From: Candidatus Bathyarchaeota archaeon
Lineage (GTDB): Archaea; Thermoproteota; Bathyarchaeia; Bathyarchaeales; Bathycorpusculaceae
Assembly (NCBI GenBank): GCA_963815095.1
Contig: CAWFFH010000003.1
Span: 1,344,001-1,408,000, forward strand
Direction of reading: 5' to 3'
Length of the DNA: 64,000 nucleotides
Shown here: in pieces, positions 51,271 through 56,209 of the stretch
Position numbering within the stretch: the stretch's first letter is position 1
Layout: each line of letters begins with the position of its first letter
Notes under the pieces: generated by a model
Databases searched by the model: none
What the model was told of the DNA's origin: nothing
What the model saw: the letters and a program-made list of their open reading frames with translations, nothing else
Translations under genes and position numbers: made by a program

Positions 51271-52112
51271 GTGATTATTTCTAAGTTAGAGAATATGAAA
51301 CCAAAGATAACACTACTCAGCTCAGTGCTTATTTTATTTTTATTAGTTCCCTCAATATCTGCAACACAAATTACTAATGTTGCACCTACACCATATACAA
51401 CTTACCACAAAGGTGACCTATACACTACTGTTTATTTTCCAAGTGAAATAACTCCACCAAATGGAACAAAACCACCAAAAATAGAAATCACATCTATGTT
51501 TAACTGTTCTGTAATAGCTTCAAATAATCTACCTTAACTTTTAATTTGACTTTGGTTTCACCAACCGCTTTTTATTCTATTATTCTTCAAGGGGTCTGTT
51601 ACAAACCAAGTTGGCAATCAGGTAATACTACTATTGACTTTGGTTCAAATAACAAGTTTTACAATAAGACGTTAGCCTTCTCAATCTCTTCTACCAATAT
51701 GACGGATGGAACAAAATCAGTTACAGTTTATGCAAGCACAATGTATGAGTTTAAAACAAGCAGAGAGAATGTTGCAGAACCAGTTAGTGGGATTAAGGGG
51801 ATTCCTCCTTATGGAAACTATCTCCATTATTCTAATTATTACTTTATAGAAGGCTCTTCCTCTGTTAACTTTATGATTGATACTTCCCCAACAGCTACAC
51901 CAAGCGTAAACAATGATTCAGGTTCAGGTTATAAAACCAACATTCTCCTGTATACAATTGGAATAATTACTCTTCTGATTGTGGCTGCTGCTTTGTTGGT
52001 TTATCACAAACGCAGAACCAAACAATTTAGTCCAGAAACCTTTACTGGACTTAGTCAAGGAAGCTGTACAAGAAGTCTTATAACGAAAACTCTTCCAACA
52101 ATAAAGTGGTAG
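51271..52112 (+). pseudogene. Surface protein split by a 1-nt frameshift near 51530
   Basis: The signal-peptide half ends SNNLP-stop; the shifted frame reads TLTFNLTLVS into ORF 51546, which carries the C-terminal TM. Confidence 0.75.
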
Positions 52113-53614
52113 CTATGAGTAAAACTATAGCTTTAGCAATTGTTTTGGTCTTTCTAACAGCATCAAGCATAATTACCTTTTTGCCGGCCAAAGCTGAAAC
52201 TAAAGCCATCATTGTTCCAGATGATTACCCAACTATATCTGATGCATTGATTGCTGCTGCCGACGGTGACACCATATGTGTGAAGAAAGGAACCTACAAG
52301 GAGGGTACATTGGTGATAAACAAAACAGTGACCCTTATAGGCGAAGACCCAAAAACAACCATAATACAAGACCCCTGGTTAACTCCTCATTGGGACCCCT
52401 CTTCATCACCTTTTCCTCCACCAAAACCCACCACCATACAAGTTAAAGCAGACGATACGACGATTTCAGGATTTACTATCACAGGCAACGCTATTCCTCT
52501 AAGCATTCTTGCTAACAGAGTTCAAGTCATTGCCAGCATCATGGATAGTATTGAAGTGTATGGCAACAATAATACCATCAGCCAAAACAGCATAAAAACA
52601 TACGTCAAATGCGATGGTTCGTACAACAACTTTCTAAGTAATCCAATGATTGGCGGAGGGTACGACGGCTTTTTAGTTAATGGAGATTTTAACGTAATTT
52701 ACAACAATAGACTTTCGGGTTGTTCCATTGAAGTGAGGGCAAAAAATAATACCATAGCAAAGAACAGCGGTTATTTCTCTCTAAGCTTAACCAAGAGTTC
52801 TTCAAATAACGTAGTTTTAGGCAACCGAATAAGTGGAGACTTACTTCTGATGGGGTTCAACAATACTTTCTATGCAAACGAGATTACTTATGTGGGAATA
52901 GGTGGATTTCACGGTGGCACCACGGATGCGGCATATAATAGTTTTTTCCAAAATAACTTTGTTGGCAAAGCACCTGAATTTTCAGTTAGCACTAAAAATC
53001 CTGGTACTCTCTTTTGGAATAACGGTGGAAAAGGGAACTATTGGCGTAGTTTCAATGGCACCGACTCAGATACCGACGGGGTAGGAGACACAACCTACCA
53101 AGTATATGCCGAGTACCACTATTTTGATGGCGCCATTCGTGAAGATACAACCGTTTCTTTGGGTCAGGACAAATATCCACTCTTGTTAGCTTTTGAAATT
53201 GATAGCGTAAAATTTGATAAGTCCAAAATTACAATCCCTGTAGTTGTGTCAGAGTCGTTGTTAACTGTTCTTTCGCCTCAAAATAATAAAACCTACAATG
53301 TGAAAGATGTATCGCTTAATTTTTCAATATCTCAACTGGCTAAATTGGTAAGGTATAGTTTGGATGAACAAGATAATGTTACGGTCGCTGGTAACTTTAC
53401 GCTTACCGATTTAGCTAATGGTGTACATAATATAACATTTTATGCCGATGACCCGTTTGGGAATACCCAAGCATCAGGAATAATTGTTTTCAATGTAGAA
53501 GTTCAAGCGTCTTTTCCTGTTGTTCTTAGGTTCGCTGTTTCTGTTGGAGTAGTCGCCTTGGCGGTTGCTGGTTTGTTGGTATACTACAAAAAACACAAGA
53601 CGAAAACAGCTTGA
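52106..53614 (+). CDS. NosD-like beta-helix surface protein with an Ig-like domain and C-terminal TM
   Basis: IIVPDDYPTI, GNYW...DGVGD...DKYPL, YSLD...GVHNIT, TM plus YYKKHK. Confidence 0.8.
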   Translation: MVAMSKTIALAIVLVFLTASSIITFLPAKAETKAIIVPDDYPTISDALIAAADGDTICVKKGTYKEGTLVINKTVTLIGEDPKTTIIQDPWLTPHWDPSSSPFPPPKPTTIQVKADDTTISGFTITGNAIPLSILANRVQVIASIMDSIEVYGNNNTISQNSIKTYVKCDGSYNNFLSNPMIGGGYDGFLVNGDFNVIYNNRLSGCSIEVRAKNNTIAKNSGYFSLSLTKSSSNNVVLGNRISGDLLLMGFNNTFYANEITYVGIGGFHGGTTDAAYNSFFQNNFVGKAPEFSVSTKNPGTLFWNNGGKGNYWRSFNGTDSDTDGVGDTTYQVYAEYHYFDGAIREDTTVSLGQDKYPLLLAFEIDSVKFDKSKITIPVVVSESLLTVLSPQNNKTYNVKDVSLNFSISQLAKLVRYSLDEQDNVTVAGNFTLTDLANGVHNITFYADDPFGNTQASGIIVFNVEVQASFPVVLRFAVSVGVVALAVAGLLVYYKKHKTKTA

Positions 53615-53705
53615 TACTTATTGGGTGGCTGTTCTTTTTGGGGAACACTGTGTTCCTCTGGGAGAGCTAAAAGTCAGATTGTTGCATACACAATTAGGGT
53701 TAATC

Positions 53706-54605
53706 ATGAATCGTCAGTCAAGCAGGGTAACCGTGTTTGCGGTGGTTCTTTTGGGTTTACTGTTGATTGGGCTCCAACCTGTTTTAGGTAGCACTGTGGG
53801 TCCAGTTTACCTCTCTGACTACATCACCGTCTACAGCCCCGTCAACACAACCTACAACACCAAAAACATCCTCTTCAACTACACTGTTGGCGTCGGCATA
53901 GGCATGCACATTTCCCTAAATTACACCCTGGACGGAACCCTAGCAGACGCCATGCCCTTCACAGTCATAAACCCAAACGAGCTGCACGTGATGTATTTAG
54001 CGCGTGGTCAAGTACAGTTGCCCGAGTTATCAGAGGGACAACATACTTTGACAATTGCATACTATACAGACTTTAACTTCTACAAAGATGCACATTCTTA
54101 CGTGGACACAATTCATTTTACCGTCGACTCAGCGGCACCCGACGTTGTTTTAGATGCAACCCCACCCAACATAACCATACTAACACCTAAAACAAACCAA
54201 ACCTATGCAGGCGCAGTCCTGTTAAATGTGCTCCTAAGCGAACTAACCACACCATTTACAGTAAACATAGACGGAAACAGAACCATAACTCTGCCAGCGC
54301 AAAACACCACTCTAACCGACTTAACTGTAGGCAAACATAGCCTCTCCATTAAAGCAAACGACCTTGTAGGAAACCGAGGGTACTCAAACAGAGTCAGTTT
54401 TTACGTGACTCAACCCACGTCAACACATACGCCAACCCCAACGCTTACACCAACTCCAATGCATACACCAACCCCAACGCCTATAATCCCAACAAGTAGC
54501 TTCAATTCGCAATTAATGCTTCCAATAATTGCGGTTGTAGTTTTAGCCGTTGTAATTATCTCTTTGTTGCTTTTTAGACTATATGAAAGACGAGTGAGAA
54601 AGTAA
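53706..54605 (+). CDS. Ig-like-repeat surface protein whose C-terminus was replaced by an IS110 insertion
   Basis: Signal peptide from ATG 53706, two Ig-like repeats, PT linker, TM; the original tail RHRKTISQNQPNV is found at 55853-55894. Confidence 0.8.
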   Translation: MNRQSSRVTVFAVVLLGLLLIGLQPVLGSTVGPVYLSDYITVYSPVNTTYNTKNILFNYTVGVGIGMHISLNYTLDGTLADAMPFTVINPNELHVMYLARGQVQLPELSEGQHTLTIAYYTDFNFYKDAHSYVDTIHFTVDSAAPDVVLDATPPNITILTPKTNQTYAGAVLLNVLLSELTTPFTVNIDGNRTITLPAQNTTLTDLTVGKHSLSIKANDLVGNRGYSNRVSFYVTQPTSTHTPTPTLTPTPMHTPTPTPIIPTSSFNSQLMLPIIAVVVLAVVIISLLLFRLYERRVRK

Positions 54606-54731
54606 CTCTTGCTGGCTAGTCCGGTGCCTTCTTGGCCCTTGCGGCCGATTTTTAGACTGGGCTTGACCTGAGCTGCTATAGAACTGGGCATTCGCCCGTA
54701 TGAGAGATTGCAGCCTGAAAGCCAGCAGGAG
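54606..54731 (+). ncRNA. Putative IS110 bridge RNA
   Basis: 12-bp closing stem; two stem-internal loop-hairpin modules whose loops match the target and donor junction sequences. Confidence 0.75.
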
Positions 54732-54742
54732 AAAGAAAAAAA

Positions 54743-55789
54743 ATGGTGAGATATGTAGGAGTAGATGTTGGCAAAGCCAAATGCAGAGCAGCAATAATGA
54801 ATCAAACCGGCGCCATCGAGAGCGAATTCTTCTTTGAAAACAACACTAAAGGAATAGAGTCTTTGACGTCTATGCTAACTGTTGAGGATCAGGTTGTTAT
54901 GGAATCTACAGGGAATTTGTGGCTAAGCATATACGATGCATTGGATAATAGAAGCATTAAGGTAGTGCTGGCTAATCCATTGAAGACTAAAGTGATAGCT
55001 TCAGCGAAAATAAAAACTGATAAGGTGGATGCTAGGATTTTGGCGCATTTGCTGAGAGCTGATCTTGTTGCTGAAAGCTATGTTCCGCAAGGAAGCATAC
55101 GTGAAATGCGAGGTTTAGTTAGGCATAGGCTGAGCTTGGTTAGAATGCGCACGGCTATAAAGAACAAGGCACATGCAATCGTTGACAAGTATAGTTATCG
55201 TTGTGAATTCTCAGATATGTTCGGTAAAGGTGGAATTGCTTGGATGAGGTCACTGATACTTAATGAGCTTGATAGACTGATTTTGGAAAACCATCTTTCG
55301 CTGATTGAATCTATTAACTTGCAGGTCGGGATGGTGGATAAAGCTATTCGAAAAATCGCTTGTGAGGATGAGGATGTTCGGTTGCTACTTAGCTTGACTG
55401 GTGTTGATGTTTATGGTGCATTGTTGATTCATAGTGAAATTGGTCCGATAACGCGGTTTAGTAGTTATAAGAAGTTGATTTCTTGGGCTGGTTTGGCTCC
55501 GTCGGTGCATCAATCTGGGAATGTTGAGTATACTGGTAGGATTACTAAGCGTGGTTCTAGCTTGTTGAGGTGGGTTATGGTTGAGGCTGCGAGGACTGCT
55601 GTGCAGTATGATGAGAAATTGGCTGGGTTTTATGAGCGTGTGAGGGCTAGGCGTGGTGATCAGAAGGCTGCTGTTGCTGTTGCTTGTAAGATGCTTAAGA
55701 TTGTTTGGTTCATGCTAAGTAGGCGTGAGGTCTATAGCTGTGCTAATACGAGGCGTTATGGAGAAAAGCTAAAAAAGATTGGTGCGTAG
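54743..55789 (+). CDS. IS110-family DEDD recombinase/transposase
   Basis: YVGVDVGK, VMEST, KIKTDKVDA, GLAPSVHQSG, ITKRGSSLLRW, AVACK. Confidence 0.95.
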   Translation: MVRYVGVDVGKAKCRAAIMNQTGAIESEFFFENNTKGIESLTSMLTVEDQVVMESTGNLWLSIYDALDNRSIKVVLANPLKTKVIASAKIKTDKVDARILAHLLRADLVAESYVPQGSIREMRGLVRHRLSLVRMRTAIKNKAHAIVDKYSYRCEFSDMFGKGGIAWMRSLILNELDRLILENHLSLIESINLQVGMVDKAIRKIACEDEDVRLLLSLTGVDVYGALLIHSEIGPITRFSSYKKLISWAGLAPSVHQSGNVEYTGRITKRGSSLLRWVMVEAARTAVQYDEKLAGFYERVRARRGDQKAAVAVACKMLKIVWFMLSRREVYSCANTRRYGEKLKKIGA

Positions 55790-56209
55790 TTTGGTTTACT
55801 GGCTTTCAGGATAAGTTGGTCGCTGGCTTAGAGAACCGTCTTTCATGAGAGAAGGCATCGAAAAACAATCTCTCAAAACCAACCCAACGTTTAAAAAAAA
55901 GCATAAACTAAATTTTAAAGGAAAAGTTTGATAAACTCAACTTTCTTTGTATTGAAAAAACATCTAAGGATATTTTTAATTAAAAACTTTAGTTCTTTCT
56001 TTCTGTGTTTGTCTGTCTTGTGTGTGCTAAAGGAGAGAGAGAGAGTAGTAGTAAAAGTAGTTAGATGAAAGAAGTAGTCAATAGTAGTTAGTTAGAAGCA
56101 TAGGGGAAAAAGACTAAAATTTTATCCTTCAATAGTCTTTTGTTTTATTAAGAAGAAAATAAACATTATTAGATTTTTTCAATTAAACTGCTTTTAAAAT
56201 TCGACCTGG

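What the first reader, a model, noticed from the sequence alone, without database searches (positions are those of the whole stretch)
54606..54731. Archaeal bridge RNA with readable target and donor guides
Seen: closing stem CTCTTGCTGGCT/AGCCAGCAGGAG. Loop 1: stem CTAGTC/GACTGG, guide TGCCTTCT (54625-54632, reverse complement of the right target flank AGAAGGCA), hairpin TGGCC-CTTGC-GGCCG, then guide TTTTTAGA (54649-54656, identical to the left target flank). Loop 2: stem GCTGC/GCAGC, TATAGAACT (partial match to the reverse complement of the left end, TATAGTCT), hairpin GGGC-ATTC-GCCC, then ATGAGAGA (54700-54707, identical to the right end 55845-55852). Known: IS110 recombinases use a bispecific non-coding RNA with target- and donor-binding loops around a short core. 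Inference: a compact, probably programmable archaeal bridge recombinase; read on the bottom strand the core is (T)CT.
Basis: partly seen in the sequence, partly recalled or inferred. Interest (0 to 1): 0.8.

Follow-up and report, generated by a model that had tools for sequence, protein, structure and literature searches.

The report
Archaeal insertion sequence with bridge RNA
A small jumping gene in an uncultured archaeon carries, just ahead of its recombinase gene, a folded RNA whose loops spell out both its insertion site and its own ends; this is a genuine but expected member of the known bridge-RNA (IS110/IS1111) family.

Summary
It lies in the left end of a 1.27-kb insertion sequence whose ORF 54743-55789 is an IS110-family DEDD recombinase.

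The genome holds 4 near-identical copies, all at TTTTT-AG-AAGGC(A/G). A covariance model found the RNA upstream of the recombinase in 83 of 100 related sources searched. 17 of 27 pairs show compensatory changes.

In 43 distinct element/site pairs the loop-1 guides track the flanks. Cognate matches total 439 of 559 positions against a permuted mean of 243; 0 of 5000 permutations reach the observed sum. The 2-nt core (AG or TG; CT or CA on the bottom strand) changes together in the target, loop 1 and loop 2.

The ends (a 10-bp subterminal inverted repeat with 7-bp and 3-bp extensions) and the guide order are IS1111-type, but the RNA lies upstream as in IS110/IS621.

Verdict: a real bridge/seek RNA and a new member of a known kind. 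Activity and programmability are inferred, not tested.

The parts
54571..54577 (+). Left target flank TTTTT plus the 2-nt core AG. It lies inside the 3' end of host ORF 53565-54605.
   Evidence: Identical in all 4 copies and identical to the loop-1 3'-side guide.
54578..55849 (+). Body of the insertion sequence, 1272 bp. It is flanked by the core AG on both sides (54576-77 and 55850-51).
   Evidence: 4 copies at 99-100% identity share these ends. The 2-nt core is set by relatives.
54583..54592 (+). Left subterminal inverted repeat ATGAAAGACG. It is preceded by a 7-bp extension (core AG + ACTAT).
   Evidence: Reverse complement of 55837-55846. Perfect repeats of 7-14 bp, with matching changes on both arms, occur in relatives.
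54606..54731 (+). Bridge RNA: closing stem P1, target-binding arm and donor-binding arm. The covariance-model hit spans 54604-54734.
   Evidence: Fold; model hit of 121 bits; covariation. G-U pairs at three positions in 59-64 of 75 distinct rows show that + is the RNA strand.
54625..54632 (+). Loop 1, 5' side: UGCCUU-CU. It is complementary to the + strand core plus right flank, AG-AAGGCA (55850-55857).
   Evidence: 8 of 8 in 3 copies and 7 of 8 in the fourth. In relatives: cognate 5.42 of 7 against non-cognate 2.87.
54649..54657 (+). Loop 1, 3' side: UUUUU-AG identical to the left flank plus core (it pairs with the bottom strand). Two further nt, AC, match the first two bases of the element and look like a handshake guide.
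   Evidence: In relatives: cognate 4.79 of 6 against 2.55. The last 2 nt equal the first 2 bases of the left end in 33 of 43 pairs and the first 2 bases of the right flank in 2 of 43.
54677..54685 (+). Loop 2, 5' side: UAUAG-AA-CU. UAUAG is complementary to the left-end pentamer CTATA (54579-83). CU can pair with the core across a 1-nt bulge.
   Evidence: The same pattern holds in L029 (TTTTA/UAAAA) and L031 (CCTTA/UAAGG). Discrimination is weak overall: 3.98 against 3.45 of 5.
54700..54707 (+). Loop 2, 3' side: AUGAG-AG-A. It is identical to the right end plus core plus the first base of the left end, which is the predicted circle junction.
   Evidence: Identical to 55845-55852. The core in this guide equals the core at the right junction in 43 of 43 pairs, 21 with AG and 22 with TG.
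54743..55789 (+). IS110-family DEDD/Ser recombinase, 348 aa.
   Evidence: Pfam PF01548 4.8e-28 and PF02371 7.4e-22. NCBIfam NF033542 243.8 bits. The alignment to IS621 keeps GvDvgk, mEstG, ktDkvDa and qSGn.
55837..55846 (+). Right subterminal inverted repeat CGTCTTTCAT. It is followed by the 3-bp extension GAG (55847-49).
   Evidence: The right end ..TTTCATGAG is present in all 43 pairs used.
55850..55857 (+). Core AG plus the right target flank AAGGCA.

Best explanation
This is an active IS110/IS1111-family insertion sequence of a Bathyarchaeia archaeon. Its left non-coding end encodes a bridge (seek) RNA of about 126 nt.

Shown here:
- The RNA structure is conserved with compensatory changes.
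- Loop 1 carries one guide complementary to the + strand (core plus right flank) and one identical to the + strand (left flank plus core).
- Loop 2 carries the analogous guides for the element's own right end plus core and its left-end pentamer.
- Target guides, core and flanks change together across relatives.
- 4 near-identical copies sit at the same 13-bp site.

Inferred from the IS621, ISEc11 and ISEc21 work:
- The element excises as a circle joining ..CATGAG-AG-ACTATATG...
- Recombinase subunits bound to loop 2 hold this junction, and subunits bound to loop 1 hold TTTTT-AG-AAGGCA.
- The strand reading CT (the bottom strand here) is cut next to the core and exchanged.
- The 2 extra nt of the loop-1 3'-side guide (AC) then pair with the incoming donor strand as a handshake.
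- The Holliday junction is resolved, leaving the element flanked by the 2-nt core.

In architecture it is an IS1111-type element (subterminal inverted repeat, 7/3 extensions, top-strand complement first) that carries its RNA upstream of the recombinase gene.
For: - Protein family.
- Fold.
- Copies: 4 copies with the same flanks, and exactly 4 RNA copies, each next to a recombinase gene.
- Distribution: model R1 hits 83 of 100 sources, always on the recombinase strand; where I compared coordinates the hit ends just upstream of the recombinase match.
- Structure covariation: 17 of 27 pairs changed on both sides, 165 such cells against 41.4 in shuffles, and 96.4% paired against 24.6-43.7% when partners are slid.
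- Target guides against flanks: 439 of 559 against a permuted 243 +/- 11, 0 of 5000. With one row per guide pair (n = 36): 367 of 468 against 201.8 +/- 10.2, 0 of 5000.
- Core AG/TG: matched by the loop-1 3' side in 43 of 43 and by the loop-2 3' side in 43 of 43.
- Handshake: 33 of 43 against 2 of 43.
- More distant relatives (22-51 bits) show the same right-flank complementarity in 9 of the 12 rows where a right end could be found, judged by eye.
- Literature passages read: Durrant 2024 PMC11208160, Hiraizumi 2024 PMC11208158, Siddiquee 2024 PMC11187229.
Against: - There is no direct evidence that the RNA is made or bound by the protein. The only RNA-library hit is one 151-nt contig, which could be DNA carry-over.
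- No circle junction was observed.
- The loop-2 5' side discriminates cognate from non-cognate left ends only weakly (3.98 against 3.45 of 5), because the left-end pentamer varies little.
- The loop-1 5' side matches the first core base in only 28 of 43.
- Alignment A2 was fitted to the model's structure, which favours it, and the sequences are related, which inflates shuffle tests.
- 17 of 100 sources, all with recombinase identity of 42% or less, had no model hit.
- Rfam 15 has no matching family.
Confidence: 0.9

Rival explanations
1. The RNA is a target-only seeker RNA. Only loop 1 guides DNA recognition. The element's ends are recognised by the protein through the subterminal inverted repeats, and loop 2 is a structural or protein-binding arm whose likeness to the ends is partly inherited.
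For: Loop-2 5'-side complementarity to the left end barely beats non-cognate pairings (3.98 against 3.45 of 5). The 10-bp subterminal inverted repeats are conserved with matching changes, so something reads them. Siddiquee 2024 states that end recognition may differ in the IS1111 family, and the seekRNAs it describes are 70-100 nt.
Against: The loop-2 3' side equals right end plus core in all 43 pairs and switches AG/TG with the core. Where the left-end pentamer does vary (CTATA, TTTTA, CCTTA), the 5' side follows it. The loop has the same geometry as loop 1.
Confidence: 0.07
2. The structure is a 5'-UTR element that controls translation of the recombinase, and the matches to the flanks are by-products of site-specific insertion.
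For: The 3' strand of the closing stem contains GGAG 11 nt before the ATG. No terminator-like T run separates the RNA from the CDS. The one RNA-library contig spans the RNA-CDS boundary.
Against: A by-product cannot explain why guides inside the element change together with flanks outside it across 36 guide classes. GGAG lies outside the stem in the TG-core relatives. A regulatory role could coexist with guiding.
Confidence: 0.02
3. The fold and the 8-mer matches arose by chance.
For: The fold z-score in the window alone is modest (-2.93).
Confidence: 0.01

Closest known systems
IS621 bridge RNA and recombinase (IS110 group; Durrant 2024, Hiraizumi 2024)
   Same: - DEDD RuvC-like plus Tnp(Ser) recombinase.
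- RNA in the long left end, upstream of the gene.
- Two internal loops, each with a 5' and a 3' guide overlapping a 2-nt core that reads CT.
- 2-nt handshake extension on the target loop's 3' guide that matches the donor, not the target.
- One donor guide pairs discontiguously.
   Different: - Relative to the gene strand the guides are swapped. [quoted passage not shown] The IS621 passages say that the 5' side pairs with the bottom strand.
- The subterminal repeat is 10 bp instead of 2-3 bp.
- A closing stem encloses both arms; the IS621 passages mention a 5' stem-loop and a linker.
- The RNA is 126-131 nt against 177 nt.
- The proteins are only distantly alike (E 6e-15).
- I had no IS621 DNA to compare directly.
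IS1111-family seekRNA elements (ISEc11, ISKpn4, ISPa11; IS4321/IS5075; Siddiquee 2024)
   Same: - Subterminal inverted repeats with 7-bp left and 3-bp right extensions.
[quoted passage not shown]
- One IS5075 copy read here (L192) has a 12-bp repeat, 7/3 extensions, a 9-nt complement of its right flank and, 3' of that, an 8-nt stretch identical to its right end plus flank.
   Different: - The RNA lies upstream of the recombinase gene, not downstream.
- The donor guides sit in a simple internal loop.
- Model R1 was not run on L192.
- The IS4321/IS5075 transposases align only over residues 118-331 at about 27% (E 2e-7).
IS1111 relatives with an upstream non-coding region (ISMtsp17; ISHvo10 and ISAcp5 with both), named as exceptions by Siddiquee 2024
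   Same: IS1111-type ends are reported together with an upstream long non-coding region.
   Different: The passages I read describe no RNA or guides for them, and I had no sequences, so I do not know whether they belong to the same lineage.
Archaeal C/D-box sRNAs with Nop5 (Vaysset 2024 preprint)
   Same: A structured RNA with two bulged guide regions, bound by a protein proposed to be related to the IS110 recombinase.
   Different: They guide RNA methylation, not DNA recombination. No C/D boxes occur here. The only Rfam hit, sR28, lies inside the CDS at E 0.22 and is chance.

Membership tests
IS110-family bridge recombinase system (broad sense, IS110 + IS1111) | DEDD RuvC-like domain plus Tnp domain with a catalytic Ser | tested here: met
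   PF01548 and PF02371. NF033542 above its cut-off. D, E, D, D and S motifs align with IS621.
IS110-family bridge recombinase system (broad sense, IS110 + IS1111) | Conserved structured ncRNA in the long non-coding end next to the recombinase | tested here: met
   83 of 100 sources, and 17 of 27 pairs with compensatory change.
IS110-family bridge recombinase system (broad sense, IS110 + IS1111) | One loop with guides to both strands of the target overlapping a short core, co-varying with the insertion site | tested here: met
   (0 of 5000 permutations).
IS110-family bridge recombinase system (broad sense, IS110 + IS1111) | A second loop with guides to the right-end/left-end donor junction | tested here: inconclusive
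   The 3' side is met in 43 of 43, including the core switch. The 5' side is only 3.98 against 3.45 of 5.
IS110-family bridge recombinase system (broad sense, IS110 + IS1111) | The RNA is expressed and binds the recombinase, and a circular intermediate forms | not testable with these tools
   Only one 151-nt contig from an RNA library was found.
IS1111 group | Subterminal inverted repeats (7-17 bp; usually 11-13 bp) | tested here: met
   10 bp in the window. 7-14 bp in relatives, with matching changes on both arms.
IS1111 group | Terminal extensions of 7 bp on the left and 3 bp on the right | tested here: met
   AG+ACTAT and GAG.
IS1111 group | [quoted passage not shown] | tested here: met
   54625-32 is complementary to the + strand. 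54649-55 is identical to the + strand.
IS1111 group | The long non-coding region lies downstream of the transposase gene | tested here: not met
   The left end is 165 nt and holds the RNA; the right end is 60 nt. The same holds in all 83 hits.
IS1111 group | Transposase related over its full length to that of IS1111 | not tested
   The only data are the partial 27% matches to IS4321/IS5075. No tree with reference sequences was built.
IS110 group (strict sense, IS621-like) | [quoted passage not shown] | tested here: not met
   The repeat is 10 bp and the 5' sides pair with the + (coding) strand. The convention is taken from passages.
Any Rfam 15 family | A match to a curated covariance model | tested here: not met
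   No relevant hit at E up to 1 in 54300-56100.

The most novel reading that the evidence does not exclude
These elements could form a distinct lineage, centred on archaea (Bathyarchaeia, Halobacteria) with some bacterial members, of IS1111-type elements. In this reading the lineage moved the bridge RNA upstream and closed both guide arms into one compact three-way junction of about 126-131 nt. In this genome the element would be specialised on the coding sequence of the basic cytoplasmic tail (..LLLFR|RHRK..) of membrane-anchored surface-protein paralogues. It enters co-directionally and supplies a substitute basic tail plus a stop codon (LYERRVRK*). Insertion would then be nearly neutral, and read-through from the host gene could feed RNA and recombinase expression.
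Probability: 0.3. Interest if true: 0.55.

Novelty: new member of a known kind. Interest (0 to 1): 0.4.

Why it matters
The case confirms that guide-to-flank reading of a bridge RNA can be done from raw sequence. It adds a well-documented archaeal example: 4 copies, about 36 naturally reprogrammed guide classes, a natural core switch between CT and CA, and a conserved handshake dinucleotide.

The mixed architecture, with IS1111-type ends and guide order but an upstream RNA in simple internal loops, is useful for working out how the IS110 and IS1111 groups are related. A 348-aa protein with an RNA of about 126 nt is a small candidate for engineering. The mechanism is already known, and large surveys of IS110-adjacent RNAs already cover archaeal genomes. 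The specialist surprise is therefore modest.

Tried and rejected
- Rfam search of 54300-56100 at E up to 1: only a chance sR28 hit inside the CDS.
- Expression: the run search gave one metatranscriptome run with a 0.06 share of words. Laying it gave one 151-nt contig over 54627-54776 with 2 other letters and 1 gap. A contig shows no strand and could be DNA carry-over, so I do not use it as evidence.
- Direct comparison with IS621 DNA: the family search in 'own' reported control genomes with matches, E. coli among them, but gave no loci for them. I had no permitted way to fetch IS621, so the comparison rests on passages of the papers.
- Placing the recombinase in the IS1111 or IS110 branch: tblastn on plasmids gave haloarchaeal 'IS110 family transposase' hits as best (46.8%). 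IS4321/IS5075 aligned only partially, at about 27%. No tree was built for lack of named IS110-group references.
- IS5075 comparator (L192): the right-flank complement and the right-end match were found, but no match to this copy's left flank. That flank may not be its natural target. Only one copy was examined.
- Loop-2 5' side against the left-end pentamer: weak discrimination.
- The first attempt at locating right ends with a loose pattern picked wrong sites, for the window among others. It was redone with a stricter anchor.
- RNAalifold on the MAFFT alignment A1 missed the closing stem because of a 1-column offset, so I gave the structure by hand.
- Rows dropped: of the 83 model hits I used the 64 rows with at least 77 bits. 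17 of these lacked one flank or an anchor, leaving 47. Four duplicates were removed, leaving 43. The 19 weaker rows were looked at separately, with anchors derived from the guides themselves and judged by eye.
- Only 100 of the roughly 190 sources held at that point were given.
- Supplementary files of the papers were not seen. The covariation data and ISfinder tables of Durrant 2024 and Siddiquee 2024, and the cluster lists of preprint 10.64898/2026.10.21.760802, may already contain this RNA family.
- Papers: I read only listings and found passages, not whole texts. Whether an archaeal bridge RNA is described in print was checked only by the search (22 papers hold the terms) and the passages. 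None of those passages describes one individually.

Full report
**What is there.** Folded as RNA, the + strand gives a 12-bp closing stem and two arms. Each arm is an outer stem, an internal loop and a terminal hairpin (-53.2 kcal/mol, z -2.93; 1 of 200 shuffles folds as well).

Eleven bases downstream starts ORF 54743-55789 (348 aa). It carries Pfam DEDD_Tnp_IS110 (4.8e-28) and Transposase_20 (7.4e-22). It passes NCBIfam NF033542, 'IS110 family RNA-guided transposase', with 243.8 bits against a cut-off of 140. It is distantly similar to the two bridge recombinases with solved structures, IS621 (E 6.1e-15) and ISCro4 (2.5e-14). The D, E, D..D and S motifs are aligned. Rfam 15 has no family for the RNA.

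**The element and its target.**
- The window's genome (2.69 Mb, 9 contigs) holds 4 copies at 99-100% identity. It holds exactly 4 DEDD transposase genes and 4 RNA copies.
- All four copies share the ends CTATATGAAAG... and ...CTTTCATGAGAGA. All four lie between ..CTTTTTAGA and AGGC(A/G)...
- Relatives show that the shared core is 2 nt (AG). The element body is 54578-55849, with a left end of 165 nt and a right end of 60 nt.
- A 10-bp subterminal inverted repeat (54583-92 and 55837-46) leaves a 7-bp extension on the left, counting the core, and a 3-bp extension on the right.
- No unoccupied perfect 13-bp target remains in the genome.
- Three of the 4 copies interrupt long ORFs at the same codon, ..[membrane helix]LLLFR|RHRK... 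The fourth sits in a 22-aa remnant with the same motif.
- The element's first 27 bases complete the host frame with LYERRVRK and a stop.

**Host.** Same-family genomes and record titles of the closest relatives place the host in Bathyarchaeia. L008 is the same 2485-base contig as L029. The recombinase was found in 12 of 100 other genomes of the same family at E up to 1e-20.

**Is the RNA real?**
- I aligned 10 upstream regions (A1), gave the five helices by hand and searched 100 of the roughly 190 sources held with the model.
- There were 83 hits, all on the recombinase strand. Where I compared coordinates, the hit ends just upstream of the recombinase match.
- The 17 sources without a hit all have recombinase identity of 42% or less.
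- On the resulting alignment (75 distinct rows), 96.4% of cells pair, against 87.2% in column shuffles and 24.6-43.7% when partners are slid.
- 17 of 27 pairs have changes on both sides, with 165 such cells against 41.4 in shuffles. All five measures were reached by 0 of 500 shuffles.
- The alignment was fitted to the model and the rows are related, so these figures are generous. The slid controls and the number of compensatory pair types are still convincing.
- G-U pairs at three positions, in 59-64 of 75 rows, would be A-C on the other strand. The + strand is therefore the RNA.

**Do the guides track the DNA?**
- I used anchors that do not depend on the guides: TATGAAAG for the left end and TTTCATGAG for the right end. 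Flanks could be extracted for 47 of the 64 close rows, giving 43 distinct element/site pairs with 34 distinct 5'-side and 26 distinct 3'-side loop-1 guides.
- The 3' side equals the left flank at 4.79 of 6 positions, against 2.55 for non-cognate pairs.
- The reverse complement of the 5' side equals the right flank at 5.42 of 7, against 2.87.
- The summed score is 439 of 559, against 243 +/- 11 for permuted pairings (maximum 285; 0 of 5000).
- With one row per guide pair (n = 36) it is 367 of 468, against 201.8 +/- 10.2 (0 of 5000).
- The core is AG in 21 pairs and TG in 22. It is matched by the loop-1 3' side in 43 of 43, by the loop-2 3' side in 43 of 43 and by the loop-1 5' side in 28 of 43.
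- The two bases after the core in the loop-1 3' guide equal the first two bases of the element in 33 of 43, but the first two bases of the right flank in only 2 of 43. This is the behaviour described for the handshake guides of IS621, which pair with the non-cognate DNA after strand exchange (Hiraizumi 2024, passages).
- The loop-2 5' side follows the left-end pentamer where the pentamer varies: CTATA/UAUAG, TTTTA/UAAAA and CCTTA/UAAGG. Overall it beats non-cognate pairings only slightly (3.98 against 3.45 of 5), because most elements share CTTTA.
- Weaker model hits (22-51 bits; archaeal and a few bacterial) show the same right-flank complementarity in 9 of the 12 rows where a right end was found. 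This was judged by eye with guide-derived anchors, and some guides are low-complexity CGCGCG.

**How it most likely works.** By analogy with IS621 and ISEc11/ISEc21, the element excises as a circle whose junction ..CATGAG-AG-ACTATATG.. is held by loop 2. Loop 1 holds TTTTT-AG-AAGGCA. The DEDD/Ser recombinase cuts and exchanges the strands next to the core, the handshake pairs stabilise the exchanged strand, and the junction is resolved.

The sequence relations are shown here. Expression, circle formation and chemistry are inferred. The only RNA-library trace is one 151-nt contig across 54627-54776, which I do not count as evidence.

One further inference, untested: the left terminus (..TTTATGAAAG.., CTATATGAAAG in the window) lies at a fixed distance of about 23-27 nt upstream of the closing stem in the relatives I looked at. 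It could serve as an archaeal TATA-like element.

**Comparison with what is known.**
[quoted passage not shown] The donor is written RE-LE.
- Siddiquee 2024 (passages) reports exactly this reversal as the difference between the families. In IS1111-family seekRNAs the top-strand complement comes first. That paper also gives subterminal inverted repeats with 7-bp and 3-bp extensions as the family's hallmark, with the non-coding region usually downstream. It names a few exceptions (ISMtsp17; ISHvo10 and ISAcp5 with both).
- One IS5075 copy that I read (L192) has a 12-bp repeat, 7/3 extensions and, in its downstream non-coding region, a 9-nt complement of its right flank. An 8-nt stretch identical to its right end plus flank lies 3' of that.
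- The window's element is thus IS1111-type in three features and IS110-type in one, the upstream RNA. Its donor guides sit in a simple internal loop, whereas many IS1111 members were said to use a multi-loop. I did not place the recombinase on a tree.

**Novelty.** Archaeal IS110 recombinases are known: 662 in Vaysset 2024. The genome sets of Durrant 2024 and of the 2026 preprint that clustered 181,180 IS110-adjacent intergenic sequences include archaea. I found no passage that describes an archaeal bridge RNA individually, but I saw only passages and no supplements. I rate it a new member of a known kind, with a mixed architecture worth noting. Interest 0.4.

**Limits.** Supplements were not available. 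There are no experiments.

Noticed in passing
window 53565-54605 and 54579-54605; G000 C3:1060826, C4:83627, C4:293125(-): The element sits in frame at ..LLLFR|RHRK.. just after the C-terminal membrane helix of surface-protein ORFs (3 of 4 copies; the fourth is in a short remnant). Its first 27 bases supply a substitute basic tail, LYERRVRK, and a stop. The host protein may therefore stay functional, and its transcript would read into the bridge RNA.
   Followed up: partly
G000 C4:290317(-), C6:94835, C6:95306, C3:1529398(-), C2:4238(-), C4:85772: Other paralogous C-terminal tails (..RRHRKTANL....LRHRKTANLNK..TMHRKTSN) carry near-targets with 1-5 mismatches and are unoccupied. One has IPEFS before the helix, which from recall resembles a PEF-CTERM-type sorting signal. 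No perfect 13-bp site is left free.
   Followed up: partly
window 52106-53614 and 53565-54605: Two overlapping ORFs for probable secreted, membrane-anchored proteins with PT-rich linkers. They have no Pfam hit. Their only NCBIfam hits are below the cut-offs: NosD-like beta-helix at 60 bits against 300, and OmpL47-type barrel.
   Followed up: partly
window 54728-54731: GGAG lies 11 nt before the recombinase ATG, inside the 3' strand of the RNA's closing stem. Folding of the bridge RNA could therefore mask the ribosome-binding site in this subgroup. In the TG-core relatives GGAG lies outside the stem.
   Followed up: no
L108 (metagenome contig; recombinase 98% identical): A near-identical element sits at a different, imperfect site (left ..CATTTT-AG, right AG-CAAGGT; right-flank score 4 of 7). 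This is a possible natural off-target insertion.
   Followed up: no
window 55256-55306: A weak match to the C/D-box family sR28 lies inside the recombinase CDS (16.4 bits against a gathering score of 39, E 0.22). I take it as chance.
   Followed up: no
window 56020-56100: A low-complexity stretch downstream of the element: a (GA)n run followed by repeated TAGT/AGTAG words. Not examined.
   Followed up: no
L038, L185, L183 (Halobacteria and others), L061, L067 (bacteria): The same upstream two-arm RNA is detectable at 21-25 bits next to recombinases only 36-41% identical. The best plasmid matches of the protein are haloarchaeal (46.8%). The lineage therefore spans several archaeal phyla and some bacteria.
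   Followed up: partly
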